A stretch of DNA of 38,544 bases from a virus (taxonomy: Duplodnaviria; Heunggongvirae; Uroviricota; Caudoviricetes), in IMG/VR virus record IMGVR_UViG_3300017917_001353, positions 1-38,544 of that record, one strand, 5' to 3'. This document shows, in pieces, positions 11,051 to 33,694 of this stretch. Every line of letters starts with the position of its first letter. The first letter of the stretch is position 1. The translations under genes were made by a program, and so were the position numbers. A model generated the notes under the pieces. The model was not told where the DNA came from, made no database searches, and saw only the letters and a list, made by a program, of their open reading frames with translations.

Positions 11051-13066
11051 ATGCTTGACAACATTCCACGAGTACCCCCAGAAAAAGTTAAATCAGCCAA
11101 ATGGAACGGTGATCCATTAGAGTATGATCTACAACTCTATACTCTAGGAGAAGGCGAGGATGAGTTTTGGGTACTAAATCCAGAATTTGAACAGAGCCAT
11201 ATTCCGTTCTTCATTGATCATATCCCAGACAGTAGAAAGTGTGTAGTCTTTAACTATCAAGGGCAATGGGTCGCCAAAGTTTTTAAAGACGGCTGGTATC
11301 CTTATCACGGCTATGAAAGTATAGAAATATCTATTCCAAAACTAGCATGGTCTCGAAATCCTGATATTGACAGTAGAATGAATTTCAATATCGATCCTAG
11401 GACTACATACAGTCTTGACTTCTGGGATCAAAATTATGAAATGTATTGGGCTATAGATCCGCGTTTCTTTCCTCACGAAGGCGAAGTATGGGTCTACAAA
11501 GCGTCAGTTATCGGTAAAAAAACTACCGGCACAAAGTTTATGGGATACCTAACACCTAACGTCGTTGTTGAACGTAACGACTCTTTGGACTTTCTAGAAC
11601 TAGATCAAGACGAACTATATCCTCCATACTATGATTTAGATAATGAATGCGTATTCATACTAGATAAAAACTTTACAGGCAACGAGATAGTAGAAGTAGC
11701 GTCAATTAAACCTGCATACAAAAAAGTGTCAGGTCGAAGAATAATTGGTACAGTTACTCCGGAAGTCAAAATTAAAATTAATCCAAAGTTAAAAGACATA
11801 AACTTTGACATATCCGATACGATCATCTATTACGACAATCTAGCAAAAGAAAACATTTGGATGTTAGATCACAAATATCTAGGACCAGACGACACTGAAC
11901 TGTGGGCAGTAAAACTTACACTAGTAGATAAGCCTAAAGGAAAAGTAATCGTGGGGGAAATCTCTCCGCAGTTTACACTAGAGTATAATCCAGATCTTCC
12001 TGAATTAATCTATGATCTAGATTTTAAAGCACCTTGGTATGACTTAAAATATGAGCACATGTGGATGCTAGACTCTGACCACACTAGAGATTTACAAGAG
12101 GAAATGTGGGCTGTTAAAGTTAAGGCAACAGATGAGCCAGTAGGAACAAAAATTGTAGGTAGCATTGAACCTTGCGGAGAACTAGAGCTCAACGGTGATG
12201 TGACAGTTCCTTTCGAGTTACCAGAAAACTTTGCAGTTCAATACTACGATCTTGCATATGAACATGTTTGGGTATCTAGAGAAGGCGAAGAAAAGATTCA
12301 GGTCGCTCGTTTATGCTATGTAGAAGAACCGCGCGGCCGAAAAGAATTTGACGTCACTGAAGAACTCAACGAAGATCAGTTAGATGTTATCTTTATCAGT
12401 TACAACGAACCAAATGCAGAAAACAATTGGAATCGCGTAAAAGAAAAAGCACCCTGGGCTCAGCGTGTTGACGGCGTAAAAGGCATCCTAAACGCACATA
12501 AAGCCGCAGCCAAAAAGTCCAGAACAGACATGTTCTATGTAGTAGACGGTGATGCACATTTAATAGACACTTGGAAATTTAACTATCGTCCTAGTATTTT
12601 TGATAGAGACTGTACCTATATTTGGGCAGCAGTTAATCCATTAACTAATTTGACTTATGGCCACGGCGGTGTTAAACTGTTTTCTAAAGAGAAATTATTA
12701 AAATTAAAAAAGTGGAGAACTTTGGACATGACTACCTGCGTCTCTGAAAAAATCAAAGTAATGAGCGAAGTAAGCAACGTAACAGAGTTCAACACAGATG
12801 AATTCAGTGCTTGGAAGACTGCATTCAGAGAATGTGTAAAACTCTCTTTGAATGTCCAAACAGATCATGCAAATGAAAACCACAAAGTGCGATTAGATGC
12901 ATGGCAACATATTGATGCTAACTTATCTTTCTCCCGTGCTGCCATGGCGGGTGCTCTGCAGGGTATGGAGTTCTTTAAAGAACACGAGTTTGATGCAGAT
13001 GCTTTAACTAAGATCAACGACAGAGAATGGTTAGAGCAAAGATATAATACAACCTATAAGAAATAA
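11051..13066 (+). CDS. five ~68-aa tandem repeats fused to a C-terminal GT-A-like domain
   Basis: C-terminus DVIFISYNEPNAE..VDGVKGILNAH..FYVVDGDA (DxD)..YGHGGVKLF. N-terminal repeats follow NP.L..(Y/W)YDL..EH.W.LD..W(A/V).K..G.K..G.I.P. Confidence 0.65.
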   Translation: MLDNIPRVPPEKVKSAKWNGDPLEYDLQLYTLGEGEDEFWVLNPEFEQSHIPFFIDHIPDSRKCVVFNYQGQWVAKVFKDGWYPYHGYESIEISIPKLAWSRNPDIDSRMNFNIDPRTTYSLDFWDQNYEMYWAIDPRFFPHEGEVWVYKASVIGKKTTGTKFMGYLTPNVVVERNDSLDFLELDQDELYPPYYDLDNECVFILDKNFTGNEIVEVASIKPAYKKVSGRRIIGTVTPEVKIKINPKLKDINFDISDTIIYYDNLAKENIWMLDHKYLGPDDTELWAVKLTLVDKPKGKVIVGEISPQFTLEYNPDLPELIYDLDFKAPWYDLKYEHMWMLDSDHTRDLQEEMWAVKVKATDEPVGTKIVGSIEPCGELELNGDVTVPFELPENFAVQYYDLAYEHVWVSREGEEKIQVARLCYVEEPRGRKEFDVTEELNEDQLDVIFISYNEPNAENNWNRVKEKAPWAQRVDGVKGILNAHKAAAKKSRTDMFYVVDGDAHLIDTWKFNYRPSIFDRDCTYIWAAVNPLTNLTYGHGGVKLFSKEKLLKLKKWRTLDMTTCVSEKIKVMSEVSNVTEFNTDEFSAWKTAFRECVKLSLNVQTDHANENHKVRLDAWQHIDANLSFSRAAMAGALQGMEFFKEHEFDADALTKINDREWLEQRYNTTYKK

Positions 13067-13068
13067 TT

Positions 13069-14463
13069 ATGAGCGAAGACTCGAGCCTGCACAGCAGGAT
13101 AAGAACTGTCATACCTATTATTAACGAAGTTAGTCAAACGTTTTGTCTAGCCAAGTGGTATCACACAACTCTGTATCTACAGACTGGAGAAACACACAGT
13201 TGTTATCATCCTCCTCCACATAAGATCAGCATCAAAGAGATCAGTAAAGATCCTAGCGCATTGCACAACACCTTGGCTAAGAAAATAGAACGCCAGGAAA
13301 TGTTAGTAGGTGTGCAGACAAAAGGTTGCCAGTATTGCTGGAACGTTGAAAACCTAAAAGGCGATCACCTAAGTGATAGACATCTGCGAAGTGCTGCGAT
13401 CTATACAGAAGATAGGTTCAACACTGCGAGTAGAGGCCCATGGGATCAAAATATTAATCCCGAATACGTTGAAATCAGTTTCGGTAACGAGTGTAATTTT
13501 AAATGCGGTTACTGCCATCCTAAGGCCAGCAGCCGTTTTTACAACGAGATTAAACAACACGGTCCTGTTGAAACAGTAAAGAATCATAGATGCGATATTG
13601 ACTGGCTCAAAATCTACGAGCGTGAAGAAGAAAACCCCTATGTTGATTCTTGGTGGAAGTGGTGGCCAGAACTGCGTAAAGAGTTAACCATCCTTCGCAT
13701 TACAGGTGGGGAACCGTTAATGCATTCTAGCACATGGAAGATGTTTGACAGCATACAAGAAGAACCTCTACCTTGGTTAGAATTAAACATCAATAGTAAC
13801 CTAGGTGTAAAGCCTGCTCTAGTTGATAAAATGATCAGCAAGGTTAACAGTATTATTGATAACAACGGAATCAAAACATTCAAACTGTTTACCAGCATTG
13901 ACACTTGGGGTCCTCGTGCCGAGTATATTCGCACAGGACTAGACTTATCTATATGGGAACGCAACCTCGATGCATACCTAACACAGACCGGCCAGCCTAT
14001 TAGTTTTATGATTACGTTCAATATTATGTCTGTTACGACATTTAAAGAATTGTTATCTAAGATATTAGAATGGCGCGGCAAGTATAATGCTTACAACAAA
14101 ACAGAAAAGCCTCAGATGATAAGGTTCGATACTCCGTATCTAAAAGAGCCGTTGCAGTACGACATTAACATTCTTCCTAAAGATGCGTTCATGCCTTATA
14201 TGGAAGATAGTCTACAGTTTATGAAAGACAACTTAGACGACAACGATCTTTCTAAGTTTACCACTGTAGAATACGAAAAGTTTAGACGGGTCGTCGACTA
14301 TATGAAAAGTGCAACATACTCTGACGAACAGTTGCTTGAAGGACGTCGGGACTTTTACAATTGGTTCAATGCATTAGATTCAAGACGAGACACAAACTTT
14401 ACGCAGGTGTTTCCGGAGATGAAGGACTTTTACAATCAGTGTGGATTACTAGCCAATGAGTGA
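13069..14463 (+). CDS. radical SAM protein with N-terminal twitch-like Cys module
   Basis: CNFKCGYC (CX3CX2C), ITGGEPL. N-terminal FCLAKW..HSCYH..CQYC. Confidence 0.9.
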   Translation: MSEDSSLHSRIRTVIPIINEVSQTFCLAKWYHTTLYLQTGETHSCYHPPPHKISIKEISKDPSALHNTLAKKIERQEMLVGVQTKGCQYCWNVENLKGDHLSDRHLRSAAIYTEDRFNTASRGPWDQNINPEYVEISFGNECNFKCGYCHPKASSRFYNEIKQHGPVETVKNHRCDIDWLKIYEREEENPYVDSWWKWWPELRKELTILRITGGEPLMHSSTWKMFDSIQEEPLPWLELNINSNLGVKPALVDKMISKVNSIIDNNGIKTFKLFTSIDTWGPRAEYIRTGLDLSIWERNLDAYLTQTGQPISFMITFNIMSVTTFKELLSKILEWRGKYNAYNKTEKPQMIRFDTPYLKEPLQYDINILPKDAFMPYMEDSLQFMKDNLDDNDLSKFTTVEYEKFRRVVDYMKSATYSDEQLLEGRRDFYNWFNALDSRRDTNFTQVFPEMKDFYNQCGLLANE

Positions 14464-15670
14464 TACGAATAAATTATTAACTGAAAGTAAAGTGTTTTGC
14501 ATGGCTCCGTGGATTCATGCACACACTAATCCTATCGGTGATGCACATCCTTGCTGCATTGCAAAGGGTATCTTTGCACGGCAAGCAGACTTAAACGGTA
14601 TTGTTAATTCCGAAGGCATGAAGTCTCTAAGACAAGACATGCTTAACGGTAAGGAAAACTCTGCCTGTGTTGCTTGTTACAAACACGAAGAACAGAAGTT
14701 AGACAGTTTCCGCCAATGGTTCAACAGAGAGTACGGAAGCCATGCTTCTTATTCTATCGCAAACACACGTAAAGACGGAACGTTAGATCATTTTAAAATG
14801 CGTTACTTTGATCTACGGTTCAACAACATCTGTAACTTTAAATGCAGGACCTGTAACGCTAGTTTTAGTAGCCAGTGGGAACAAGAGGACCTTAAGCGTA
14901 AGGTGCCTTGGGCAAGAGTGTTACCTCGTAATACTGAAATACTCAGTGAAGTATTAGAACATGTTCCTTACATGGAACATGCTTACTTTGCAGGCGGCGA
15001 GCCTTTGATTACAGAAGAACATTACATCTTACTAGAAGAAATGATTCGACTAGGTAAAACTGATATTAAACTAAAATACAATTCTAATGTCAGCAACCTA
15101 AAGTTCAAGAACAAAGACATTGTCGAGTTGTGGTCTAAGTTCAGTAACCCTATTGAAATGGCAGCAAGCATTGATCACTTTGGTGCTAAGGCCGAATATA
15201 TTAGAACAGGTACTAACTGGGAACAAGTTGAACGCAACCTATTGAAGTTGCGTGACACACCAAACGTTAAGTTACAATTAAATTCTGTTGTAAGTATCTT
15301 TAACTATGTGTCCTACGGCGAATTTGTATCTTACCTAGATATGGTAGGCATACTTGCACCGGAGTCTAGAATTGAGCTTACTCCTTACAACATGGTAGAC
15401 CCACTGCACTTAGCAGCACAGGCTCTACCGATTGATTTAAAACAGCAGGGAAAGCAGAACCTGCTATCTGTAATTGCCAAGATGCAGGGATTAGGTTATA
15501 GAAGTTTCCAGACTGGTATTTTAAAGCAGGCAATTGATTGGGTCGAGGCCGCGAATACCTGGGATCAAAACAAAGATAAATTTAAGCAGGAAATTAAGGA
15601 TATTGACACAGTCAGGAACGAAGACTTTGTCAGCGTATTCCCTGAACTGAAAGGACTGTTAGATGATTGA
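14456..15670 (+). CDS. N-terminal twitch radical SAM protein
   Basis: FCMAPW..HPCC..CVAC, then CNFKCRTC and FAGGEPL. Confidence 0.9.
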   Translation: MSDTNKLLTESKVFCMAPWIHAHTNPIGDAHPCCIAKGIFARQADLNGIVNSEGMKSLRQDMLNGKENSACVACYKHEEQKLDSFRQWFNREYGSHASYSIANTRKDGTLDHFKMRYFDLRFNNICNFKCRTCNASFSSQWEQEDLKRKVPWARVLPRNTEILSEVLEHVPYMEHAYFAGGEPLITEEHYILLEEMIRLGKTDIKLKYNSNVSNLKFKNKDIVELWSKFSNPIEMAASIDHFGAKAEYIRTGTNWEQVERNLLKLRDTPNVKLQLNSVVSIFNYVSYGEFVSYLDMVGILAPESRIELTPYNMVDPLHLAAQALPIDLKQQGKQNLLSVIAKMQGLGYRSFQTGILKQAIDWVEAANTWDQNKDKFKQEIKDIDTVRNEDFVSVFPELKGLLDD

Positions 15671-16919
15671 TAAGATACCAGAGTCTCCTGTATTCTGTAT
15701 TTTGCCTTGGTTACATTTTCACGCCTTACCAAACAAAAAGGTTCTTCCCTGTTGCATGGCTAACAGCGATAAGCCTGTAAGTTCTACAGATAAGGGTAGC
15801 ATCATTGAAATGATGAATACCAAAGAATATAAGCAGTTGCGTAAGAACATGCTATCAGGTACATTCAGCGATGTTTGTAACAGGTGCTATGATGTCGAAC
15901 GAGTAGGACAATGGAGCCTTCGTCAAAGTGCAAATGCTGTTCGAGGTAACAAGAATCTGGATTTGGTTAATTCTACCAAAGAGGATGGCAGCATAGATGA
16001 ATTTAAACTACAATATGTAGATATACGATGGAGCAATATCTGTAACTTCAAGTGTCGCAGTTGCGGACCGGAGTTTAGTAGTCTACACGCAAAAGAGTTT
16101 ATTGATAACAAGGGCGGTGTTGAGAAGTTGCAGCAATACTTCAAAATGGATAACATGGTTGTGAGCTGTAATGAAGACGGCTCCTTCTTTGATAAAGTTG
16201 TTCCATATTTGAAAGACACTGATGAAGTTTATTTCGCAGGCGGCGAAAGTTTAATTACTTCTGAGCATTACAAGATGCTAGACGAATGGATTAGATTAGG
16301 TAACGATGACATACGTCTAACCTACACTACAAACTTCAGCGTATTCAAACACAAAGGTAAAGATGTTATTGAGTATTGGAAAAAGTTTAAGAACATTGCT
16401 ATATTTGCTAGCCTCGATGGAATGGGTAAGAACCTTGAATACCTACGCCACGGTGCAGATTGGACAGAAATAGAAAACAATATCAAGATGCTCAAAGAAC
16501 AGGTTCCACATGTTAAGTTTAATCTAACGCCGACGATCAGCGTTTGGAATGCATGGCATTTCCCTGACTTCTTTGAGTACATGGTAAAGAACAATTATAT
16601 TGATCCAACCAGTGAAGATTGTCTGCGTCTAAACATGTTAACCAATCCTTGGTGGGCCAATGTAGCCATATTACCAAGTTTCTACAAAGACAGATTGTTC
16701 TTAAAGTGGAACAAGATAAAAACTAATTCCAACTATAGTGTAAGTGTTCGTAACGCGGCTGCTATGGTTCAAGAAGCACTAAAAGGTGAAACAAGAGTCG
16801 AAGGTCTAAAGGAGTTTTTTGATATTCAAAAGGAAACCGATGAACTCAGAAAAGAAGATTGGATTAATTCGATACCAGAACTAGAGGACGTATACGAATG
16901 GGTGGAAGAAAACTCTTAA
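15663..16919 (+). CDS. N-terminal twitch radical SAM protein
   Basis: FCILPW..LPCC..CNRC, then CNFKCRSC and FAGGESL. Confidence 0.9.
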   Translation: MIDKIPESPVFCILPWLHFHALPNKKVLPCCMANSDKPVSSTDKGSIIEMMNTKEYKQLRKNMLSGTFSDVCNRCYDVERVGQWSLRQSANAVRGNKNLDLVNSTKEDGSIDEFKLQYVDIRWSNICNFKCRSCGPEFSSLHAKEFIDNKGGVEKLQQYFKMDNMVVSCNEDGSFFDKVVPYLKDTDEVYFAGGESLITSEHYKMLDEWIRLGNDDIRLTYTTNFSVFKHKGKDVIEYWKKFKNIAIFASLDGMGKNLEYLRHGADWTEIENNIKMLKEQVPHVKFNLTPTISVWNAWHFPDFFEYMVKNNYIDPTSEDCLRLNMLTNPWWANVAILPSFYKDRLFLKWNKIKTNSNYSVSVRNAAAMVQEALKGETRVEGLKEFFDIQKETDELRKEDWINSIPELEDVYEWVEENS

Positions 16920-17881: not shown

Positions 17882-17883
17882 TT

Positions 17884-20846: not shown

Positions 20847-20853
20847 GTATATA

Positions 20854-22284: not shown

Positions 22285-22829
22285 TGAACTACAAATTAAA
22301 TCAGTGGGACCACTTTGATACCTCGTATCTAAAAACCTTTGGGCAGGAAGTACCTGTCTATAGTCCCAGTGTCTATAGAGAATATAGAGGAGAGATCTTT
22401 ACTACATTCCATAGCACAGCACACCCTGTTATGCAGTTATTACCAGAACAGGTAAACGTACACGGCCGCTTTAGTAAATCATTCAAAGGTGTCTTAAGGG
22501 GATTACACTATGACACAAAGACTTGGAAGTTAGTACAGGCTCTAGTGGGAGAAATATATCTTGTGGTGCTAGATGTTAGACAAAACAGTCCAACATATGG
22601 AAAGTGGGAGTCCTACATTATCAGCGAACGTACTCGAGATCAAGTGTTGGTTCCTCCGGGCTTTGCCAACGGACACTTTGCACTTACGGATTGTATATTT
22701 CATTATAACCTTTTCTACGAAGGAGACTATGTAGACGAAAATGCACAGGGTGTAGTGAAGTGGAATGATATTAGATTTGAAATTGAATGGCCTACAGACA
22801 CACCCATTCTGCAACGGAGAGACAGATGA
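22284..22829 (+). CDS. rmlC: dTDP-4-dehydrorhamnose 3,5-epimerase-like cupin
   Basis: GVLRGLHY (catalytic His), WKLV (Lys), DVRQNSPTYGKW, VLVPPGFANGH, FHY. Confidence 0.88.
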   Translation: MNYKLNQWDHFDTSYLKTFGQEVPVYSPSVYREYRGEIFTTFHSTAHPVMQLLPEQVNVHGRFSKSFKGVLRGLHYDTKTWKLVQALVGEIYLVVLDVRQNSPTYGKWESYIISERTRDQVLVPPGFANGHFALTDCIFHYNLFYEGDYVDENAQGVVKWNDIRFEIEWPTDTPILQRRDR

Positions 22830-27812: not shown

Positions 27813-28783
27813 TGAAAGACTTAAAGATTTTAATCACAGGGGGCTCTGGACTAGTAGGACAGAACCTAACAAACCGTTTAGTAGACGACGGTTACAGTAA
27901 CATTAGAGTACATATTCACACACGCCAGCCTAGAATTAAGCATGACATCGTTGAATATGTAACAGGAGATCTAACAACCTATAAGGATTGTTTAGCAGTT
28001 ACTAAGGATGTTGATATTGTAATTCATGCTGCCGCTAGTACCAGTAACGCAGTTGATACAGTACAAGATCCGTTAGCACATGTTACACCTAACGTTGCTA
28101 TGAACAACTTTCTAATCGACAGTGCTTACCGTAACAAGGTTAAGAAGTATATCTTCATTAGTAGCAATACAGTCTATCCTCCTAAGGGCGACGAACCGGT
28201 TGTAGAAACAGACTTCCTATTCGATGAGCCTTATCCTGTATATTTTCCTGTAGGATGGATGAAGCGTTATGCAGAAGTACAGTGTGAACTATATGCTAAG
28301 TATCTGCCTAATCCTATGACCACAGTGGTTATTCGTCCTGCTAACTTATACGGACCTCATGACAAATATGACTTTGCTAAGTGTCACGTGACTCCTGCAA
28401 CTATCCGTAAAGTTGCAGACAACATGAATCCTATCCCCGTATGGGGTGACGGTACTGAACTACGTGATCTATTGTACATCGATGACTTTGTTGAAGCACT
28501 TCAACTAGTGATCGAAAAGCAGGACTCTTACGATGTTTACAATATTGGAAGTAATGTTGTTTACTCAGTTAACGATGTATTGTTTACTATGAAACAACTT
28601 GTTGATAATAACAATCCTATTGAATATGTAAAAGGTAAGCCTAGCATGATTCCAACTAGAAGGATTGATTCTAACAAGATTAAAAACAATCTAGGTTGGA
28701 GTGCCAAAACGCCATTGCACGTAGGTCTACAAAAAGCACACGATTGGTACTTGGCAAACAAGGACGAATTTAATAAAGGCTAA
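27812..28783 (+). CDS. GDP-fucose-synthase-like extended SDR with non-canonical active site
   Basis: ITGGSGLVG, ISSNTVYP, YFPVGWMKRYAE, RPANLYGPHDKY, CHVTP, VWGDGTELRDLLYIDD. Confidence 0.85.
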   Translation: MKDLKILITGGSGLVGQNLTNRLVDDGYSNIRVHIHTRQPRIKHDIVEYVTGDLTTYKDCLAVTKDVDIVIHAAASTSNAVDTVQDPLAHVTPNVAMNNFLIDSAYRNKVKKYIFISSNTVYPPKGDEPVVETDFLFDEPYPVYFPVGWMKRYAEVQCELYAKYLPNPMTTVVIRPANLYGPHDKYDFAKCHVTPATIRKVADNMNPIPVWGDGTELRDLLYIDDFVEALQLVIEKQDSYDVYNIGSNVVYSVNDVLFTMKQLVDNNNPIEYVKGKPSMIPTRRIDSNKIKNNLGWSAKTPLHVGLQKAHDWYLANKDEFNKG

Positions 28784-28785
28784 AG

Positions 28786-29718
28786 ATGAATAAGGTTTTG
28801 ATTACAGGTGGCGCAGGCTATTTAGGATCTGTGTTAACAGGATTCCTGCTAAACTCTTTCGAAGTTACAGTATATGATAACCTAATGTACAAGCAGACTT
28901 CTCTACTGCATGTGTTCAGAGCGGGCTTTAAATTTATTAAGGGCGATGTTAGAGACAAAGAAAGATTGCAGGCTCTAGTAAAAGAGCATGACATTATCAT
29001 TCCTCTAGCAGCAATAGTAGGAATGCCTGCCTGTAAGGATAATCCGCAGTTAGCCGTTGATGTTAACTATCAGCACATTGTTGATATTGTTGATGTACTG
29101 CGACCTGATCAAAAACTTATCATTCCTAATACTAACAGTCAGTACGGATCTAGTGATCAAATCATAACAGAAGAAAGCCCGTTCAATCCTCTAAGCCTGT
29201 ACGCTAAAACTAAGTGCGATGCAGAAGACTACGTTCTTAAAAATGGTAACGGTGTTGTCTTGAGACTAGCAACAGTGTTTGGTGTAAGTCCTAGAATGCG
29301 ACAGGATCTATTAGTTAATGACTTTGTCTATAAGGCAATGACAGACGGATACCTTGTACTGTTTGAGCCACATTTCAAACGTAACTATATTCACATCGGT
29401 GATATTGCTCGAGTATTTGGACACATGATACAGGAATACAATACTTGTCGTGGGCAGGTATTTAACGTGGGACTGAGTAATGCGAATCTATCCAAATTAG
29501 AGCTTGCTGAGAAAATTAAAGAGTACATACCAAACTTGGTAATCAAGACTGACGATTATAAGCAGGACTTCGACAAACGTAACTACATTGTTTCTAACGA
29601 AAAAATAGAAAGCAAAGGGTTCAAACCGATGTTTAGCCTTGACTACGGTATCAAACAGTTGATCAACGCTTATCCGTTGATAATAACTAACAACAACAGG
29701 AGTTTTACAAACCTATGA
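28786..29718 (+). CDS. NAD-dependent NDP-sugar epimerase/dehydratase (canonical YxxxK)
   Basis: ITGGAGYLG, LAAIVG, SLYAKTK, RLATVFGVSPRMR, RNYIHIGD. Confidence 0.88.
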   Translation: MNKVLITGGAGYLGSVLTGFLLNSFEVTVYDNLMYKQTSLLHVFRAGFKFIKGDVRDKERLQALVKEHDIIIPLAAIVGMPACKDNPQLAVDVNYQHIVDIVDVLRPDQKLIIPNTNSQYGSSDQIITEESPFNPLSLYAKTKCDAEDYVLKNGNGVVLRLATVFGVSPRMRQDLLVNDFVYKAMTDGYLVLFEPHFKRNYIHIGDIARVFGHMIQEYNTCRGQVFNVGLSNANLSKLELAEKIKEYIPNLVIKTDDYKQDFDKRNYIVSNEKIESKGFKPMFSLDYGIKQLINAYPLIITNNNRSFTNL

Positions 29719-30149
29719 GCGAACGAAGATATCAGCACACACTAGGCGATCTTATTGATCGTTTAAGTATTGTGCAATTAAAAGAAGTGTTTATCCCTGA
29801 ACACAAAGCAGAATATAGTCAAGAAATTGCAGACATTGTACATGACATACAGGTCATACTAAACGATACGAATGCAAAAATTACAGCAGAAACTATTCGT
29901 GCTATTGTAGTTGTTAGTCAAATGAATTTACATATTTGGCACAACGAATCCGCTTATCGTCGAGGTATGAAGGAAGGTGACCTAGCGTTAACACATGGCC
30001 TCAACGGAATTCGAAATACAGGAAAGAACAAGATTCAAGAAATTGTCGGAGGCCGATTAGATTACAAAGTTGATTGCCTAGCAGCGGATTTTAAGGACTG
30101 GGAAATTAGTTGGACTAACAAAGATGAAGATAAGAGCGGACAAACCTAA
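29715..30149 (+). CDS. small helical protein, DUF4254/DUF6165-like
   Basis: N-terminal TLGDLIDRLSIVQLK, then a LHIWHNE..R..N..RN..K..I pattern (recognition only). Confidence 0.55.
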   Translation: MSERRYQHTLGDLIDRLSIVQLKEVFIPEHKAEYSQEIADIVHDIQVILNDTNAKITAETIRAIVVVSQMNLHIWHNESAYRRGMKEGDLALTHGLNGIRNTGKNKIQEIVGGRLDYKVDCLAADFKDWEISWTNKDEDKSGQT

Positions 30150-31026
30150 GACTAAGGCAATGGTGTTTGCTGGTTGTAGTTTTACTTGGGGACAAGGTCT
30201 TTGGTATTACTCTAACATCGATTCTCTCCAAGAGGACGGTAACTATGGTTATAATGCAGCCATGCACGGAGTAGTACATCATGCCTTTAGAGAAAAATGG
30301 CGTTGGCCTACAATAGTAGCCGACCACTTTAATACTGTGCCTATTACACACTATGAGAATGGTGGTGCTAACGATCAGATAGTAGAGTTCTGGAAAGGAT
30401 CATTTAGTCATCCTCGTCCTTACAAAGTGCGTTCATTTAATGAAATAAACAAAACCTGTTTAACAACACCGATACATGAAGGTGAAGTTTCGCATTTTGT
30501 ATTTCAATTTACACAGTGGTGGCGTTCTTACTTTACAATTACAACTAATACAGGCGAAACATTAACTAAGTCGGTGCAGGAACTAAGTCATCCAACTGGA
30601 CCTTTCAAGCAATACTGGGAAGATTGGTTTGAGAATAGATGTGATCTGCAGGGAAATTTTAATAGTCCTAAGATGGGTGTGCTACACGAAACGATCATGA
30701 GACGAGATGTAGAGACTGTGAAGTCGTTCTTACAAACTCTAGAAGGCAAAGGAATAAAGACTTCGATATGGTGTTGGCCTTTTGAATTGATTCAATTCAT
30801 CGAAAGTGATCCCTGGCTTAAAGAACGATTCATTACCTTTGACTATAAAGGAAAGAATTGGAAATGCCTCGAACAGTTATTGGCAGACAATAAACAAGAT
30901 GGACTCACTTTAGAAACTGACACAGAATACTTCGAAGTTCCTCCTGCAGATCAACATCCTAGTCTAAAGTGTCATAGATTAATTGCTGATACTGTTATTA
31001 AACACATAGAAAGACAAAATGGCTAA
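30124..31026 (+). CDS. SGNH-like protein
   Basis: FAGCSFTWGQG, NGGAN, DQHPS. Confidence 0.7.
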   Translation: MKIRADKPKTKAMVFAGCSFTWGQGLWYYSNIDSLQEDGNYGYNAAMHGVVHHAFREKWRWPTIVADHFNTVPITHYENGGANDQIVEFWKGSFSHPRPYKVRSFNEINKTCLTTPIHEGEVSHFVFQFTQWWRSYFTITTNTGETLTKSVQELSHPTGPFKQYWEDWFENRCDLQGNFNSPKMGVLHETIMRRDVETVKSFLQTLEGKGIKTSIWCWPFELIQFIESDPWLKERFITFDYKGKNWKCLEQLLADNKQDGLTLETDTEYFEVPPADQHPSLKCHRLIADTVIKHIERQNG

Positions 31027-31717
31027 TATACTAATTTTAGGTGACACCTGGGGAATAGTTCCCTGCCACTCTTGGTCTCACAACAGAGGCATTACTGAAT
31101 GGTTTGAATACCAGTTCCTTAAGAAAGGACACCCTACGTTTAATAAAGCCTGGGGCGGAAACCAAAACATTTATCAATTAACACAGGCTGAAGTTTTCAT
31201 GAACGCAGTCAAAGGTACGCAGTTTGAAATTGATTTAGTTATCTGGTTCCATACTGAACTAGTTAGAGACCTTATACCCCCTGAGACTAAGTTATTTGAA
31301 ACAATGGATTTTGATTCTGTTATAGACATAACGGCAGAGCGGATGTACAATTATGTGTCTGATCTAAAGAAACAATTTCCTAACACCAAGTGGGCTATCC
31401 TCGGAGGTCATGCACCTTTACGTGCAACTAAGAAACATTTGTTAGATTGGGCAGAGTTTAGGATAGATAACCTACGTGCTAAGATAGCAGGAGTTGATAT
31501 ACCTGAGAGTCAAGCGTTTGAATTCCTAGAGCAGGGCAAGGGGTCTTTATGGGACTGGCCTGCTATATCTAACGAGATTATTGACCGAGAACTAAAAATT
31601 AAAGAGCAGATAATTGCAGCAACAAAGGATACTCAGAAATTCTATAATGGAAAGCACCCAGCAATGTTGCCTTTAAAATCTCTAGCATTTGAAATTATGG
31701 AGCACTTTAATCTATGA
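31019..31717 (+). CDS. SGNH-like protein with Thr at the nucleophile position
   Basis: ILGDTWG (GDS to GDT), WGGNQN, GKHPA. Confidence 0.6.
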   Translation: MANILILGDTWGIVPCHSWSHNRGITEWFEYQFLKKGHPTFNKAWGGNQNIYQLTQAEVFMNAVKGTQFEIDLVIWFHTELVRDLIPPETKLFETMDFDSVIDITAERMYNYVSDLKKQFPNTKWAILGGHAPLRATKKHLLDWAEFRIDNLRAKIAGVDIPESQAFEFLEQGKGSLWDWPAISNEIIDRELKIKEQIIAATKDTQKFYNGKHPAMLPLKSLAFEIMEHFNL

Positions 31718-32589
31718 AAAGCAAACCGGATAGCCGTGTAATCAAAGGCATGGTTTTTGCAGGCTGTAGTTTTACTTGGGGACAAGGGTTATACTACTAC
31801 AGTAACCTGAGCACCCTAGGCGAGCCGTTACCAGACCATTACGATAAAAATTTAGTCAAGCATTCCCACATTAAGTTTAAAGAAAGTGTACGCTATCCTA
31901 GGCTTGTAGCAAATCATTTCAATACCTACGAATTTGTACACCCAGAGAACGGCGGGTCTAATCAGGGAGCAGTACATTGGTGGGAGAATGTTTTTACAAA
32001 CAAAGATCCTAATGCTTGGTACGGTGGCCACACTATTCCAAAGGTAGAATATTCAGATGTGTCGCATGTTGTATTTCAATTAACACAGTGGCAGCGTGAT
32101 AACTTTGAAATGATCTTAGAAGGAGATCCCGAAAAGCACAACATACCGTTCCATTGTACGCATCAAGAACAGTATAGAGATAAGTTCTTTAAATGGCTAG
32201 AAGTGCAGAAACTAAGTTTAGGTACATGGATTCAGCAGTACATTCAGGGCGGACTAGATAATGTAAAGAGGTTCCTGCAGGACTGCGAAGCACACGGCGT
32301 AAAAACTCTATTGTTTACTTGGCCTAGCGAATACCTTCCCTACATTGAAAAGGATCCTTGGCTCAAAGAACGGTTTATTACCTTTGACTATAAGGGTATT
32401 AACTATAAGAGTATTGAAGATCTCATGAGCCCAGGTACCATGCAGAATAAAGGATACAATCCTGAGCTAACCATTAAGTGGGACGAAACAGAGTTTGTCG
32501 AGACTCCAAAGGATCACCACCCTAGTTTAACATGCCATCAAGTAATGGCCGAAAACGTTATTAAAAGAATTGAAAGAGATATGCAATGA
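31714..32589 (+). CDS. SGNH-like protein, paralog of 30124-31026
   Basis: FAGCSFTWGQG, NGGSN, DHHPS. Shares DPWLKERFITFDYKG exactly with 30124-31026. Confidence 0.7.
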   Translation: MKSKPDSRVIKGMVFAGCSFTWGQGLYYYSNLSTLGEPLPDHYDKNLVKHSHIKFKESVRYPRLVANHFNTYEFVHPENGGSNQGAVHWWENVFTNKDPNAWYGGHTIPKVEYSDVSHVVFQLTQWQRDNFEMILEGDPEKHNIPFHCTHQEQYRDKFFKWLEVQKLSLGTWIQQYIQGGLDNVKRFLQDCEAHGVKTLLFTWPSEYLPYIEKDPWLKERFITFDYKGINYKSIEDLMSPGTMQNKGYNPELTIKWDETEFVETPKDHHPSLTCHQVMAENVIKRIERDMQ

Positions 32590-33128
32590 GCGGACCTCAA
32601 CTTAGTCCTTACAAGGATGCACTAACTGAAGCAATGACTTTCTTAGGAGAGCAGGATAATACAGTGTTCATAGGACAGCAGATTGTTTATGCAGGCAATC
32701 CAATGAGTACTACGCTAGGCAACGTATCTAAAGATAAGATGGTAGAACTGCCTGTAATGGAAGAAACACAAATGGGCATGACTCTAGGCATTGCAATGAC
32801 AGGAAAAACTGTTATCACATTCTACCCTCGTTGGGATTTTATTGTGCTGGCTGTTAATCAACTTGTTAACCATATAGACAAGTATGAACTAATGACTGGC
32901 AAACGTGCAAACATCTTAATCCGTTTGGGAAAAGGCAGCGACAAGCCGCTTGATCCCGGACATCAACATAAGGGCAACTACCTTGACGAGTTCAGGTCGA
33001 TGTGCCCTAACATTAAATTTCATGATCTAAAAGATACAGCACATATTCTCAAAACCTACAAGGATGCATATCATACCGGTGGTGTTCATGTTCTTGTAGA
33101 GTATCCAGAACTATACTACGTACAATGA
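32586..33128 (+). CDS. TPP-dependent E1 beta / transketolase pyrimidine-binding domain only (180 aa)
   Basis: VFIGQ, ELPVMEETQMGMTLGIAMTG, AVNQLVN, PGHQH. Lacks the C-terminal transketolase domain. Confidence 0.85.
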   Translation: MSGPQLSPYKDALTEAMTFLGEQDNTVFIGQQIVYAGNPMSTTLGNVSKDKMVELPVMEETQMGMTLGIAMTGKTVITFYPRWDFIVLAVNQLVNHIDKYELMTGKRANILIRLGKGSDKPLDPGHQHKGNYLDEFRSMCPNIKFHDLKDTAHILKTYKDAYHTGGVHVLVEYPELYYVQ

Positions 33129-33694
33129 CCTACTTGTTTGATCTTCCTTTTGAGACCGATGCATTTAGCAGCGGCCAGATAGGTAGCAAACTCTGGCTCT
33201 GCGAAGAAGTAGAGAAACTATTTGATAGGATTGATCAGATTTGGCTCTACGGCGGATGGTACGGTATGACCGCATTCTTACTCCGATCTCGAAATAACAT
33301 CAAGATAGATAAAATACGTAGTTGGGATATTGATCCCGAGTGTGAGCGCAAAGCAGACATGCTTAACGAAAATTGGGTTTGGAGAGAATGGGCCTTTAAA
33401 GCATATACACACGATTGCAATCTTCTACAGCCCGCTCTAATGTGCCCTGACATGATTATAAACACCAGCACAGAGCATTTTAAAAGCATGGAATGGTGGC
33501 ACAACATACCCAAAGGTATGATTGTTGTTCTACAAGGAAACAACATGCTGCACGAAGATCACTGTGTAGATTTCGATTGTCTTGAAACCTTTGAGAAAAC
33601 ATTTCCCCTTAGTCAAACTCTTTACTCTGGCCAACTAGATTTCAAATACGATGTCGGTGGCTTCTCAAGATACATGTTAATTGGTAAAAAATAA
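33125..33694 (+). CDS. class I SAM-dependent methyltransferase-like protein
   Basis: DAFSSGQIGSKLWL, LYGGWYG (motif I-like), SWDIDPEC, INTSTEH. Confidence 0.7.
   Translation: MTYLFDLPFETDAFSSGQIGSKLWLCEEVEKLFDRIDQIWLYGGWYGMTAFLLRSRNNIKIDKIRSWDIDPECERKADMLNENWVWREWAFKAYTHDCNLLQPALMCPDMIINTSTEHFKSMEWWHNIPKGMIVVLQGNNMLHEDHCVDFDCLETFEKTFPLSQTLYSGQLDFKYDVGGFSRYMLIGKK

What the first reader, a model, noticed from the sequence alone, without database searches (positions are those of the whole stretch)
11051..33694. 22-gene phage operon that looks like a complete pathway for a tailored glycan, probably on the virion
Seen: 22 same-strand ORFs over 22.6 kb, nearly all overlapping or abutting. They encode 4 putative glycosyltransferases, RmlC, 3 NDP-sugar SDRs, a TPP E1 alpha/beta pair, 5 radical SAM enzymes, 4 SGNH proteins, a 2OG oxygenase and a methyltransferase. 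By eye none has a signal peptide or TM helix. I recognise no nucleotidyltransferase, flippase/polymerase, or DNA-base-modification hallmark (thymidylate-synthase-like hydroxymethylase) in the window. Established: giant viruses and some mycobacteriophages glycosylate their virions. Inference: a cytoplasmic pathway makes an unusual sugar from host NDP-sugars, tailors it (C-methylation, hydroxylation, acylation, radical chemistry) and transfers it to a cytoplasmic acceptor. The adjacent Thr/Ser-rich Ig-repeat protein is the obvious candidate. This much radical SAM chemistry in a phage glycan cluster is not something I can match to a characterised system.
Basis: partly seen in the sequence, partly recalled or inferred. 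Interest (0 to 1): 0.88.

Follow-up and report, generated by a model that had tools for sequence, protein, structure and literature searches.

The report
Phage sugar-tailoring operon with radical-SAM enzymes
An uncultured large T4-like water phage carries, right behind a tail or baseplate-type gene, a conserved 22-gene operon of soluble sugar-transferring and sugar-editing enzymes, five of them radical SAM enzymes, that most likely builds an unusual glycan whose target is still unknown.

Summary
22 same-strand, overlapping or abutting ORFs (11051-33694) are real genes, collinear in five related phage contigs, and under purifying selection.

- **Confirmed by family or fold:** five radical SAM enzymes (three N-terminal-twitch NF033640 paralogues, one generic, one B12-binding), RmlC, three NDP-sugar SDRs, a 2OG oxygenase, a minimal split TPP E1 alpha/beta pair, and four glycosyltransferases (one GT-A, three GT-B, by predicted fold only).
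- **Weaker:** two of the four "SGNH" proteins are well supported, one by motifs only, and one is doubtful. The "methyltransferase" is unverified.
- **Core:** GT-A, 3-6 N-twitch radical SAMs, another radical SAM, GT-B and often a B12 radical SAM recur in 65 IMG/VR contigs, always downstream of Ser/Thr/Gly-rich fibre-like genes. The accessory sugar enzymes vary between phages.
- **Absent:** no nucleotidyltransferase, membrane protein or hydroxymethylase hallmark. Relatives carry a true ThyA.

Best reading: a cytoplasmic pathway tailors host NDP-sugars and transfers them to a soluble acceptor, probably a virion fibre protein. The acceptor is not shown, and the neighbouring Ig-repeat region is not conserved in the closest relatives.

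The scan found the core module before on other DNA. One paper mentions such cassettes only in passing.

The parts
5559..11015 (+). Upstream 1818-aa protein with a subtilase S8 domain, five He_PIG Ig-like repeats (28% Ser+Thr over residues 601-1100) and C-terminal domains. It is a putative virion (baseplate or fibre region) protein and a possible but unproven acceptor.
   Evidence: Pfam Peptidase_S8 and He_PIG. phrog_9158, E 1.7e-93. Cyanophage homologues lie between baseplate wedge and tail-fibre connector genes or are annotated as virion structural protein. Composition.
11051..13066 (+). g01: five tandem ~66-aa repeats (residues ~126-449) followed by a conserved C-terminal GT-A-like glycosyltransferase domain (residues ~444-671) with an invariant DxD.
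   Evidence: AF2 model pLDDT 88.4. Foldseek hits are GT-A enzymes: PcManGT, SunS, GtrB, ppGalNAcT, PBCV-1 A64R. Invariant D60 and D62 in the alignment. Repeat HMM finds 1-8 copies in relatives. Present in 62 of 65 loci.
13069..16919 (+). g02, g03, g04: three paralogous radical SAM enzymes with an N-terminal twitch auxiliary-cluster domain (NF033640).
   Evidence: NCBIfam N_Twi_rSAM, 307-361 bits against a cut-off of 170. Invariant Cys15/33/71/74 plus CxxxCxxC. The twitch domain matches the BtrN twitch at E 1.7e-9 and the core matches viperin. 274 copies in 65 loci.
16898..17881 (+). g05: radical SAM enzyme with a C-terminal Cys-rich segment, not assigned to a named subfamily.
   Evidence: Pfam Radical_SAM 31.7 bits. 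Only sub-threshold NCBIfam hits. Present in 56 of 65 loci.
17884..20109 (+). g06: B12-binding radical SAM enzyme, likely a C-methyltransferase type.
   Evidence: Pfam B12-binding and Radical_SAM. Best NCBIfam hits are RiPP or PhpK-type radical SAM methyltransferases, all below cut-off. Present in 41 of 65 loci.
20106..20846 (+). g07: SGNH-like protein, supported by motifs only.
   Evidence: Invariant Ser12 (GCSxAAG), G52..N55 and C-terminal His/Pro-His. No family hit. A 47% homologue lies in the G001 module.
20854..22284 (+). g08: GT-B-fold glycosyltransferase, paralogue of g11 and g12.
   Evidence: BLASTP paralogy. Family alignment A1. Fold inferred from the g11 model. Start codon revised.
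22284..22829 (+). g09: RmlC-type NDP-4-keto-6-deoxyhexose 3,5-epimerase (cupin).
   Evidence: Pfam dTDP_sugar_isom, E 3e-33. TIGR01221 at 115 bits, below the equivalog cut-off of 155.75.
22787..23452 (+). g10: minimal E1 alpha-like TPP (PP-domain) subunit with a GDM...EDN cofactor motif.
   Evidence: Pfam E1_dh, E 6e-14. TIGR03182 at 84 bits, sub-threshold. Sequence. Complex model with g21.
23437..26141 (+). g11 and g12: GT-B-fold glycosyltransferases of a virus-only family.
   Evidence: AF2 pLDDT 88.6. Ninety Foldseek PDB hits at E<=1e-3; all 50 listed are GT-B. VIA Z 9.3-11 to T4 BGT and AGT, EXT1, and GT10 fucosyltransferases. ESM Atlas shows only viral clusters, some fused to an SDR or a methyltransferase.
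26116..27111 (+). g13: extended SDR, closest to GDP-L-fucose synthase, with a non-canonical Tyr/Lys spacing.
   Evidence: Pfam Epimerase, E 5e-33. NF047922 at 128 bits, sub-threshold. Motif check.
27108..27812 (+). g14: 2OG-Fe(II) oxygenase of the prolyl-hydroxylase-like type.
   Evidence: Pfam 2OG-FeII_Oxy_3 at 34.3 bits. It is the least conserved gene of the operon, 30-58% identity.
27812..29718 (+). g15 and g16: two extended NDP-sugar SDRs. g15 resembles GDP-fucose synthase or a 4,6-dehydratase. g16 has the canonical YxxxK.
   Evidence: Pfam Epimerase, E 1e-46 and 4e-29. NCBIfam sub-threshold hits. Motifs.
29715..30149 (+). g17: 144-aa protein of unknown function and the most conserved gene of the operon.
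   Evidence: 77-92% identity in relatives. More than 8000 homologue clusters, none of the 120 listed carrying a Pfam domain. Only a faint DUF4254 hit.
30124..32589 (+). g18, g19, g20: SGNH/GDSL-like proteins. g18 and g20 are paralogues with full Ser/Gly/Asn/His motifs. g19 is divergent, with Thr in place of Ser.
32586..33128 (+). g21: minimal E1 beta-like TPP (Pyr-domain) subunit, the predicted partner of g10.
   Evidence: Pfam Transket_pyr at 30.7 bits. phrog_34187 matched at positions 238-401 of 405, which I read as a possibly fused form in other phages. NF006667 sub-threshold. Complex ipSAE 0.89 against a best control of 0.00.
33125..33694 (+). g22: 189-aa conserved protein of unknown function. 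It has a Rossmann/methyltransferase-like motif pattern only, and its link to the pathway is uncertain.
   Evidence: No family or PDB hit. 788 or more homologue clusters. In the complete relative G001 the homologue lies about 80 kb from the module.
35118..36131 (+). IscU, IscA and ErpA: an Fe-S cluster assembly and delivery set 1.4 kb downstream, probably supplying the radical SAM enzymes.
   Evidence: Pfam NifU_N, E 2e-53. TIGR02011 IscA at 148.6 bits (cut-off 150.6). NF010147 ErpA at 168.6 bits (cut-off 117). ErpA-like and IscU-like genes follow the operon in all five relatives; the IscA-like gene was detected in four of them (not in G008).

Best explanation
This is a phage-encoded, cytoplasmic glycan tailoring and transfer operon in the host-recognition (tail-fibre) region of a large T4-like aquatic phage. 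The steps below are marked as shown or inferred.

1. **Input (inferred).** Host NDP-sugars are the starting material, because neither this phage nor its relatives carry a nucleotidyltransferase.
2. **Keto-sugar formation (inferred).** The three N-terminal-twitch radical SAM enzymes are relatives of the sugar-oxidising dehydrogenase BtrN in their auxiliary-cluster domain. With g05 they abstract hydrogen atoms from sugar carbons to make keto-sugars, epimers or C-C linked sugars.
3. **C-methylation (inferred).** The B12 radical SAM enzyme adds a methyl group to carbon.
4. **Epimerisation (inferred).** The RmlC-type epimerase inverts C3 and C5 of a 4-keto intermediate.
5. **Two-carbon branch (pairing supported by a model; activity and order inferred).** The split minimal TPP enzyme (g10 + g21) adds a pyruvate-derived two-carbon branch, as the Plm8/Plm9 and AviB1/AviB2 pairs do for branched deoxysugars.
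6. **Reduction and further edits (inferred).** The three SDRs reduce or epimerise keto groups. The 2OG oxygenase hydroxylates. The SGNH-like proteins add or remove O-acyl groups.
7. **Transfer (inferred).** One GT-A (g01) and three GT-B enzymes (g08, g11, g12) transfer the sugars to a soluble acceptor.
8. **Acceptor (inferred, least certain).** The most likely acceptor is a Ser/Thr-rich virion fibre or baseplate protein made from the same gene block.
9. **Cofactor supply (inferred).** The neighbouring IscU-IscA-ErpA genes supply the many Fe-S clusters.

Shown here: gene content, folds, conservation, synteny and the listed absences. The acceptor and every chemical step are untested.
For: **Enzyme identities**
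- Searches give the family assignments.
- The GT-B fold of g11 rests. The GT-A fold and DxD of g01 rest.
- The N-twitch domain matches the BtrN twitch domain at E 1.7e-9. BtrN acts on an aminocyclitol.

**The TPP pair**
- The g10:g21 complex model gives ipSAE 0.89 against a best control of 0.00. That mark was reached by 51 of 78 solved complexes and 2 of 108 mismatched pairs. Partner pLDDT is at least 90, and contact agreement between runs is 100%. The pass may reflect memory of solved E1 alpha/beta structures.
- E1 alpha/beta-like pairs that attach two-carbon branches to 4-keto deoxysugars after a 3,5-epimerase step are documented (PMC4802897). Here RmlC and E1 alpha overlap by 43 nt.

**Conservation and context**
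- The full operon is conserved and under purifying selection in five relatives.
- The core is present in 65 IMG/VR loci.
- The accessory enzymes in a complete relative are again nucleotide-sugar enzymes: a UDP-Glc/GDP-Man dehydrogenase, a DegT aminotransferase and a carbamoyltransferase. This ties the conserved core to glycan chemistry.
- The module always lies on the same strand downstream of Ser/Thr/Gly-rich fibre-like genes. Here it lies behind a protein whose cyanophage homologues are in baseplate or tail-fibre modules.

**Absences**
- No TM proteins in the module.
- No nucleotidyltransferase.
- ThyA in a relative is a true thymidylate synthase.

**Cofactor supply**
- Fe-S assembly genes are adjacent and conserved.
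Against: - No acceptor is identified.
- The He_PIG repeats of the neighbouring protein are absent from the upstream protein of several close relatives. Their copy number does not covary with the g01 repeats.
- No 4,6-dehydratase or other recognised entry enzyme was found. g13 and g15 lack a canonical YxxxK, so the order of steps is conjecture.
- Twitch and SPASM radical SAM enzymes more often act on peptides than on sugars.
- The best structural neighbours of the GT-B family include the T4 DNA glucosyltransferases, at the same Z as many other GT-B enzymes.
- Peripheral GTs that act on lipid-linked host glycans are also soluble. The lack of TM proteins therefore does not exclude host-surface modification, which is the reading given in the literature for pelagimyophages (PMC7029224).
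- No late promoter or other timing signal was found.
Confidence: 0.5

Rival explanations
1. **Host-surface conversion.** The same enzymes make unusual NDP-sugars and add them, at the cytoplasmic face, to host lipid-linked O-antigen, capsule or S-layer glycan intermediates. Host machinery then exports these. The infected cell's surface changes and competing phages are excluded.
For: - This is the published reading for glycosyltransferases in the host recognition cluster of pelagimyophages, where radical SAM cassettes were also seen (PMC7029224).
- Many LPS-core and O-antigen GT-B and GT-A enzymes are soluble or peripheral. WaaG, WbnH and WaaB are among the structural neighbours.
- The accessory enzyme set varies between phages, like O-antigen clusters.
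Against: - No Wzx, Wzy or ABC transporter, no polyprenyl-phosphate GT and no TM protein is found in the module, here or in a complete relative.
- Placement is invariably co-directional behind fibre genes.
- For a lytic T4-like phage, remodelling the surface through a multi-enzyme radical SAM pathway within one infection cycle seems costly (inference).
Confidence: 0.2
2. **Radical SAM modification of a structural protein.** The N-twitch radical SAM enzymes act on the polypeptide of a fibre or virion protein (cross-links, epimerisation, C-methylation), as RiPP-type maturases do. The transferases add sugars to the same protein.
For: - Most characterised SPASM or twitch radical SAM enzymes are peptide or protein maturases. 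SkfB is among the PDB matches.
- The best NCBIfam hits of the B12 radical SAM enzyme are RiPP C-methyltransferases, all sub-threshold.
- The g01 GT-A model resembles the peptide S-glycosyltransferases SunS and ThuS, among others.
- Fibre-like proteins lie directly upstream.
Against: - The strongest specific match of the twitch domain is to BtrN, a carbohydrate-type dehydrogenase.
- The core always co-occurs with glycosyltransferases, and the accessory genes are nucleotide-sugar enzymes.
- No small precursor peptide, RiPP recognition element or Cys-repeat target was seen.
- The upstream proteins differ between phages while the radical SAM array is conserved.
Confidence: 0.12
3. **DNA hypermodification.** The sugars are attached to modified bases in phage DNA to block restriction.
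For: - T4 alpha- and beta-glucosyltransferases and a phage HY126 transferase are among the top structural neighbours of g11, at Z 9.9-10.9.
- The phage is T4-like.
- A 2OG oxygenase is present.
Against: - No hydroxymethylase is found. The contig has no PF00303 match.
- Three near-complete relatives have a single PF00303 protein each. The one scored against NCBIfam, from G001, passes the thymidylate synthase equivalog cut-offs (336.8 bits against 327).
- The 2OG enzyme matches the prolyl-hydroxylase-like family. Tet_JBP did not appear in the Pfam-wide scan.
- The Z-scores to the DNA transferases are tied with dozens of unrelated GT-B enzymes.
- The module sits with the fibre genes, not with the nucleotide-metabolism genes.
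Confidence: 0.06
4. **Free metabolite.** The operon makes a diffusible glycosylated small molecule (aminoglycoside-like or nucleoside-like) used against the host or competitors.
For: - The closest characterised analogues of several steps come from antibiotic pathways: BtrN, the Plm8/Plm9 and AviB1/AviB2 pairs, and B12 radical SAM C-methyltransferases.
- A cyanophage paper has read a radical SAM, AHBA-synthase and amidinotransferase gene set as "antibiotic synthesis genes" (PMC12801897).
Against: - No aglycone-forming enzyme (PKS, NRPS, cyclitol synthase), no exporter and no resistance gene was found.
- Four glycosyltransferases and a repeat-bearing GT-A suggest a polymeric or protein acceptor.
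- The linkage to fibre genes is constant.
Confidence: 0.05

Closest known systems
NCBIfam NF033640, N_Twi_rSAM (twitch domain-containing radical SAM protein)
   Same: g02, g03 and g04 score 307-361 bits over the full 398-position model, against a cut-off of 170. They have an N-terminal four-Cys auxiliary-cluster domain ahead of the CxxxCxxC core.
   Different: The family has no assigned function, and I found no paper on it. Here it occurs as a tandem array of 3 copies (3-6 in relatives) inside a glycosyltransferase operon.
BtrN (butirosin 2-deoxy-scyllo-inosamine dehydrogenase; PDB 4M7S/4M7T), a twitch radical SAM dehydrogenase
   Same: It is the best solved-structure match of the auxiliary-cluster domain, at E 1.7e-9. 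Both have a four-Cys twitch domain, and BtrN's substrate is carbohydrate-like.
   Different: The domain order is permuted: N-terminal here, C-terminal in BtrN. The radical SAM core matches viperin better than BtrN. The proteins are about 150 residues longer. No activity is known.
Two-carbon branched deoxysugar pathways using PDH E1 alpha/beta-like pairs (paulomycose Plm8/Plm9; eurekanate AviB1/AviB2)
   Same: An E1 alpha-like and an E1 beta-like protein sit in a cluster with a 3,5-epimerase, SDR ketoreductases and glycosyltransferases. The pair is predicted to bind.
   Different: - The subunits are truncated to the PP domain (221 aa) and the Pyr domain (180 aa).
- Their genes are 9 kb apart.
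- No 4,6-dehydratase or 2,3-dehydratase was recognised.
- The system is encoded by a phage, not an actinomycete.
Virion glycosylation systems: mycobacteriophage capsid and tail-tube glycosylation (Freeman et al. 2023, cited in PMC12619734), and chlorovirus and mimivirus capsid or fibril glycosylation
   Same: The virus encodes its own soluble glycosyltransferases and sugar-nucleotide tailoring enzymes. The PBCV-1 A64R capsid glycosyltransferase is among the fold matches of g01.
   Different: - I know of no radical SAM, B12 or TPP chemistry in those systems (my own knowledge).
- Virion glycosylation is not demonstrated here.
- The GT families are different and virus-specific.
Glycosyltransferase and radical SAM cassettes in the "host recognition cluster" of pelagimyophages and cyanomyophages (Zaragoza-Solas et al. 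2020, PMC7029224)
   Same: The genomic setting is the same: a hypervariable tail-fibre region of aquatic T4-like phages holding glycosyltransferases, LPS-type sugar genes and radical SAM cassettes. The marine loci L058-L071 share the core at about 30-40% identity.
   Different: The paper only mentions the cassettes. It interprets the transferases as host O-chain modifiers and does not analyse the radical SAM family.

Membership tests
NF033640 N_Twi_rSAM | Full-length match above the curated cut-off (170 bits) | tested here: met
   g02 scores 307.4, g03 360.6 and g04 357.2 bits, covering 1-397/398 of the profile.
NF033640 N_Twi_rSAM | N-terminal Cys-rich twitch domain preceding the CxxxCxxC radical SAM motif | tested here: met
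   Invariant C15, C33, C71 and C74, then C126/C130/C133, in 28 sequences. Pfam SPASM matches residues 12-76. BtrN twitch match.
Radical SAM superfamily (all five enzymes) | CxxxCxxC motif and a Pfam PF04055 match | tested here: met
   The motif is at residues 142, 126, 127, 26 and 277 of g02-g06. PF04055 hits: g03, g05 and g06 are above the gathering score, g02 and g04 just below, and both are rescued by NF033640.
B12-dependent radical SAM methyltransferases | N-terminal B12-binding domain plus a radical SAM core | tested here: met
   g06 matches PF02310 at 45.2 bits and PF04055 at 61.9 bits. No equivalog cut-off is reached, so the substrate class is unknown.
GT-B glycosyltransferases (g08, g11, g12) | Two Rossmann-like domains with fold similarity to solved GT-B enzymes | tested here: met
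   The g11 model has pLDDT 88.6. Ninety Foldseek PDB hits at E<=1e-3; all 50 listed are GT-B. VIA Z 9.3-11 over about 250-305 residues. g08 and g12 are included by paralogy.
GT10 alpha-1,3-fucosyltransferases | Match to the Glyco_transf_10 model | tested here: not met
   No Pfam hit even at E<=10. PF00852 found nothing in the contig, but the control genomes were also silent. Only leads remain: an ESM-Atlas feature score of 0.77-0.78, Z 9.3-10.5 to FUT9, H. pylori-type FucT and FUT13, and a TEK-like motif seen by eye.
GT-A glycosyltransferases (g01 C-terminal domain) | Single Rossmann-like GT-A fold with a DxD metal and nucleotide-sugar motif | tested here: met
   Model pLDDT 88.4. The top Foldseek hits are GT2-type enzymes at probability 0.93-1.0, with only modest E-values (5e-4) and TM 0.3-0.47. 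D60 and D62 are invariant. Nucleotidyltransferases (HddC, IspD) also appear, but no GxGxR motif is present.
RmlC (dTDP-4-dehydrorhamnose 3,5-epimerase) | Pfam dTDP_sugar_isom and the TIGR01221 equivalog cut-off | tested here: inconclusive
   Pfam 115.2 bits against a cut-off of 27, so the family is met. TIGR01221 at 115.3 bits is below the cut-off of 155.75, so the exact substrate and nucleotide are not established.
PDH-type E1 alpha/beta TPP enzyme | PP domain with a GDG-X-N cofactor motif, a Pyr domain with the activating Glu, and a heteromer | tested here: met
   E1_dh at 52.1 bits and Transket_pyr at 30.7 bits. GDM...EDN in g10 and a Glu-rich loop in g21, by eye. Complex ipSAE 0.89 against control 0.00 (it may come from likeness to solved E1 structures). 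All equivalog cut-offs are missed and both subunits are truncated, so this is not a bona fide PDH E1.
SGNH/GDSL hydrolase superfamily (g07, g18, g19, g20) | Conserved blocks I (Ser), II/III (Gly, Asn) and V (Asp-x-x-His), plus a family-model or fold match | tested here: inconclusive
   The motifs are invariant in g18 and g20 and present in g07. g19 has Thr for Ser and no Asp. No Pfam, NCBIfam or PDB profile hit. ESM-Atlas neighbours carry Lipase_GDSL or DUF6071 in 10-18% of members. hhalign between the groups gives probability 11% and 0.3%.
Class I SAM-dependent methyltransferases (g22) | Match to a methyltransferase model or structure | tested here: not met
   No hit in Pfam (E<=10), NCBIfam, PHROGs, or PDB by sequence or 22-sequence profile. 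Only a GGxxG / acidic-residue pattern is seen by eye. The fold was not predicted.
Virion protein glycosylation system | Glycan demonstrated on virion proteins | not testable with these tools
   This needs virions. No cultured phage carries the module closely: only Ralstonia RsoM2USA and Vibrio K566/K567 match, at 22-40% identity.
DNA base hypermodification (glycosylated hydroxymethyl-pyrimidine) systems | Thymidylate-synthase-like hydroxymethylase or a TET/JBP oxygenase | tested here: not met
   No PF00303 match in the contig. The single PF00303 protein of the complete relative G001 passes the ThyA equivalog cut-offs. g14 matches 2OG-FeII_Oxy_3 and not Tet_JBP. The window's own genome is only about 29% recovered.

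The most novel reading that the evidence does not exclude
The N-terminal-twitch radical SAM paralogues are a new class of carbohydrate-editing radical enzymes. They act as NAD-independent dehydrogenases, epimerases or C-C bond formers, each specific for one position. They work on a glycan that the phage attaches to its own tail fibres. Aquatic T4-like phages would then diversify a radical-tailored, branched and C-methylated sugar coat on their host-recognition apparatus, much as bacteria diversify O-antigens.
Probability: 0.3. Interest if true: 0.88.

Novelty: new variant of a known kind. Interest (0 to 1): 0.68.

Why it matters
- **A new kind of phage glycobiology.** Virus-encoded glycosylation is known from giant viruses and mycobacteriophages. 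As far as I know it relies there on ordinary sugar-nucleotide chemistry. Here a widespread, conserved module couples virus-specific glycosyltransferases to an array of radical SAM enzymes of an unstudied family. It was found in 65 IMG/VR contigs, and one paralogue has more than 2000 homologue clusters. In this clade it also carries B12, TPP and 2OG chemistry.
- **Enzymology.** If the enzymes edit sugars, NF033640 would gain a function and the known repertoire of radical carbohydrate chemistry would grow.
- **Phage biology.** If the glycan sits on tail fibres, it would be a new layer of host-range, stability or anti-defence biology in abundant aquatic phages. The variable accessory genes would be a phage counterpart of O-antigen diversity.
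- **Cost to the phage.** The phage carries its own IscU-IscA-ErpA next to the operon, which shows how much it invests in this chemistry.

Tried and rejected
- **Near-identical DNA in cultured phages:** none.
- **g11 against viral contigs:** a single-protein query found nothing because the word-based search needs closer relatives. The family was recovered through synteny instead.
- **Bacterial context for the N-twitch family, all without result:**
  - the genome-contig scan with g04 found nothing;
  - "relatives" is not available for virus records;
  - cluster members carried only generic names.
  
  The cellular context of NF033640 was therefore not examined.
- **Cultured-phage hits** (Vibrio K566, Ralstonia RsoM2USA): neighbours are all hypothetical proteins.
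- **The look-up of encoding contigs:** g12 is not on record. For g03 it added no new families.
- **Covariation of g01 repeat number with He_PIG copy number:** none. The pairs (He_PIG, g01 repeats) were 5/5, 6/5, 4/6 and 4/1, and several relatives have no He_PIG at all. I dropped the idea that the g01 repeats are a matched ruler for the Ig repeats.
- **Promoters and terminators:**
  - the T4 late-promoter motif TATAAATA occurs once in the window, on the other strand, fewer than expected by chance;
  - sigma-70-like promoter and terminator scans inside the operon match the shuffled expectation;
  - no statement on timing can be made.
- **SGNH groups:** profile-profile links between them were not significant. 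PDB profile searches for g18/g20, g22 and the GT-B family gave nothing useful.
- **PF00852 (GT10) genome search:** uninformative, because the controls were also silent.
- **Literature:** searches for "N-terminal twitch" and "twitch domain-containing radical SAM" found no paper on this family.
- **g01 C-terminal domain as the missing sugar nucleotidyltransferase:** considered because HddC and IspD appear among the fold matches. Rejected because the GxGxR signature is absent and a DxD motif is invariant.

Full report
**What the window is.** The window is the first 38.5 kb of a 102,544-base linear IMG/VR virus contig with a CheckV completeness of 29%. That fits a genome of roughly 330-360 kb, like the related near-complete records G001-G003. 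Earlier notes of this scan call it a freshwater T4-like phage. I did not test the habitat.

**The observation.** One search lists exactly 22 + strand ORFs between 11051 and 33694.
- Junctions run from +2 to -43 nt.
- The listed start of the 8th gene (20716) would overlap its neighbour by 131 nt. An ATG at 20854 agrees with the relatives.
- No product has a 19-residue window with mean hydropathy of 1.7 or more. The only TM-bearing + strand genes nearby are the two lysis-type genes after the operon.
- The genes are real. All 22 are collinear in five related contigs (G005-G009) at 30-92% protein identity.
- Synonymous sites are saturated. dN/dS is 0.03-0.37 wherever it can be computed.

**Components confirmed by family models.**
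- g02-g04 are full-length members of NCBIfam NF033640 (N-terminal twitch radical SAM), at 307-361 bits against a cut-off of 170.
- g05 is a radical SAM enzyme of no named subfamily.
- g06 combines a B12-binding domain with a radical SAM core.
- g09 is RmlC-type.
- g13, g15 and g16 are extended NDP-sugar SDRs. The best models for g13 and g15 are GDP-fucose synthase, far below the equivalog cut-offs.
- g14 is a 2OG-Fe(II) oxygenase.
- g10 is a 221-aa E1 alpha-like TPP-binding protein.
- g21 is a 180-aa E1 beta-like Pyr domain.

**Components without any family hit.** Ten proteins hit nothing in Pfam (even at E<=10), NCBIfam or PHROGs.

*Glycosyltransferases.*
- g08, g11 and g12 are paralogues.
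- With 44 homologues, AlphaFold2 gave a confident g11 model (pLDDT 88.6).
- Its structural neighbours are all GT-B glycosyltransferases. There are ninety Foldseek PDB hits at E<=1e-3, and VIA Z reaches 9.3-11 to T4 BGT and AGT, EXT1 and GT10-type fucosyltransferases.
- g01 is composite. Five tandem ~66-aa repeats precede a 230-aa domain.
- That domain is the only part conserved in distant relatives. It folds as a GT-A with an invariant DxD.
- So "four glycosyltransferases" is supported by fold, not by family membership.

*SGNH-like proteins.*
- g18 and g20 are paralogues with invariant Ser, Gly-Gly-x-Asn and Asp-x-His-Pro. A minority of members of their nearest ESM-Atlas clusters carry Lipase_GDSL or DUF6071.
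- g07 shows the motifs only.
- g19 has Thr for the nucleophile and lacks the Asp.
- Profile-profile comparisons do not link the groups.

*Unassigned.*
- The g22 "methyltransferase" could not be verified by any search. In the complete relative G001 its homologue lies far from the module.
- g17 is a 144-aa protein. It is the most conserved gene of the operon and belongs to a very large unannotated family.

**A conserved core with variable accessories.** A search with g03 returned 65 viral loci. Local comparison shows a shared core on one strand.

| Core element | Loci with it (of 65) |
|---|---|
| N-twitch radical SAM genes (3-6 in the loci examined; 274 ORFs in all) | 65 |
| g01 C-terminal GT-A domain | 62 |
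| g05-type radical SAM | 56 |
| GT-B family | 53 |
| B12 radical SAM | 41 |
| SDR | 23 |

- RmlC and E1 alpha were seen only in the seven closest loci among the stretches fetched.
- g13-g22 were checked, and found, only in the five extended relatives.
- The complete relative G001 (364 kb, terminal repeats) shows the same architecture. A 3169-aa Ser/Thr-rich protein and smaller Ser/Thr-rich proteins come first. About 29 kb of soluble enzymes follow, with no TM protein.
- The G001 block contains a UDP-Glc/GDP-Man dehydrogenase, a DegT-type sugar aminotransferase and a carbamoyltransferase in place of the RmlC and TPP set.
- The accessory genes are nucleotide-sugar or glycan enzymes in both lineages. 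This is my main reason to place the conserved radical SAM core in glycan chemistry.

**What the radical SAM enzymes resemble.**
- A 28-sequence profile of the N-twitch family matches, with its N-terminal 90 residues, the C-terminal twitch domain of BtrN (E 1.7e-9). With its core it matches viperin (E 4e-7).
- Four Cys are invariant in the N-terminal domain. This fits a fully ligated auxiliary cluster as in BtrN (my recollection of the BtrN structure).
- BtrN oxidises a secondary alcohol of an aminocyclitol without NAD. No 4,6-dehydratase is recognisable here, and g13 and g15 lack a canonical YxxxK.
- Radical dehydrogenation is therefore an attractive source of the keto-sugars that RmlC, the TPP enzyme and the reductases need. 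This is inference only.

**The TPP pair.**
- g10 carries a GDM...EDN cofactor motif. g21 is a bare Pyr domain.
- Their genes lie 9 kb apart. A complex model nevertheless scores ipSAE 0.89 against a best control of 0.00.
- That mark was reached by 51 of 78 solved complexes and 2 of 108 mismatches. Partner pLDDT is at least 90, and the runs agree in 100% of contacts.
- E1 alpha/beta structures are solved, so the pass may reflect likeness rather than new information.
- E1 alpha/beta-like pairs attach a pyruvate-derived two-carbon branch to 4-keto deoxysugars after a 3,5-epimerase step in the paulomycin, avilamycin and kosinostatin pathways (PMC4802897). Here RmlC and E1 alpha overlap.

**Where the product goes.**

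*For a virion protein:*
- The operon starts 35 nt after an 1818-aa protein gene, and no terminator was found between them.
- That protein's S8 domain has homologues at 24-46% identity in T4-like cyanophages. In S-SSM7 the gene lies between baseplate wedge and tail-fibre connector genes. In S-TIM54 and S-SCSM1 it is annotated as a virion structural protein.
- In distant relatives the upstream genes are Ser/Thr/Gly-rich. One family shows tail-fibre intramolecular-chaperone and virion-protein signatures.

*Against the specific acceptor proposed:*
- The He_PIG region is absent from the upstream protein of several close relatives that keep the part of the operon compared there; L008 lies in G006, which has all 22 genes.
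- Its copy number does not follow the 1-8 repeats of g01.

*Against DNA:*
- The contig has no thymidylate-synthase-family gene.
- The single one in the complete relative G001 passes the ThyA equivalog cut-offs.

*Host-surface modification remains open:*
- There is no export or polymerase gene and no TM protein. Peripheral host-glycan transferases are also soluble, however.
- The one paper that mentions these cassettes favours host O-chain modification (PMC7029224).

I therefore give the virion-glycan reading about 0.5 and the host-surface reading about 0.2. Protein-directed radical chemistry gets about 0.12. DNA and a free metabolite get about 0.05 each.

**Supporting context.**
- IscU, IscA and ErpA lie 1.4 kb downstream. 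ErpA and IscU follow the operon in all five relatives, IscA in four. A phage supplying Fe-S assembly factors fits an operon that needs at least nine [4Fe-4S] clusters.
- A Hydrolase_2 cell-wall hydrolase with an N-terminal hydrophobic segment and a small TM protein follow the operon directly.

**Novelty.**
- Cultured phages almost lack the module.
- The literature search found only a passing mention of such cassettes. It found nothing on the N-twitch family.
- This scan has reported the same core module on other phage DNA several times, and my results agree with those notes.
- This window adds the extended clade-specific tailoring set: RmlC, the split TPP pair, three SDRs, the 2OG oxygenase and the SGNH-like proteins. 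It also adds the copy-number-variable repeat on the GT-A protein.
- Phage and giant-virus glycosylation and NDP-sugar tailoring are known kinds of system. I rate this a new variant with uncharacterised enzymology, not a categorically new system.

Noticed in passing
window 35118-36131: IscU (NifU_N), IscA and ErpA genes in a row, 1.4 kb after the operon. ErpA and IscU follow the operon in all five relatives, IscA in four. A phage-encoded Fe-S cluster assembly and delivery set probably serves the radical SAM enzymes.
   Followed up: partly
window 11426-12400 (g01 residues ~126-449): A ~66-aa tandem repeat (W.LD...W.VK...G.K..G...P) is present in 5 copies here and in 1-8 copies in g01 homologues of related phages. 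It is found in no other ORF of the contig, the 65 loci or G001, and matches no family.
   Followed up: partly
window 29715-30149 (g17): This 144-aa protein has more than 8000 homologue clusters in the protein collection, many at 80-99% identity. It is far more conserved than its neighbours. It has no Pfam family beyond a faint DUF4254 hit and is absent from the complete relative G001.
   Followed up: partly
window 33794-34713: Directly after the operon come a Hydrolase_2 (SleB-type) cell-wall hydrolase with one N-terminal hydrophobic segment and a 110-aa protein with one TM segment. They look like a lysis cassette and sit behind a sigma-70-like TTGACT-17-TAAACT site at 33714-33742.
   Followed up: no
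window 11030-11052: An 8-bp inverted repeat (TACTCTAA / TTAGAGTA) with a 6-nt loop ends 1 nt before the g01 start codon. It could occlude the ribosome-binding region or mark an RNA processing site between the 1818-aa gene and the operon.
   Followed up: no
window 26116-27111 and 27812-28783 (g13, g15): Both GDP-fucose-synthase-like SDRs lack the canonical YxxxK spacing. They read YPGWSK and Y...VGWMK, yet are among the most conserved genes of the operon (63-89% identity). This may be an atypical active site.
   Followed up: no
window 1925-2638 (- strand): An aspartyl/asparaginyl beta-hydroxylase family gene. The pelagimyophage paper (PMC7029224) lists this family, with ribosomal protein S21, among the genes core to those phages.
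   Followed up: no
L115:15361-16836, L115:7697-8875 and L115:11189-11776 (relative G001): The homologous module of a complete 364-kb relative carries a NodU/CmcH-type carbamoyltransferase, a UDP-Glc/GDP-Man dehydrogenase and a short DegT-type aminotransferase in place of the RmlC and TPP set. The accessory content is therefore modular.
   Followed up: partly
window 32586-33128 (g21): g21 matches only positions 238-401 of the 405-position phrog_34187. This suggests that in other phages the PP and Pyr halves of this minimal TPP enzyme are fused in one protein.
   Followed up: no
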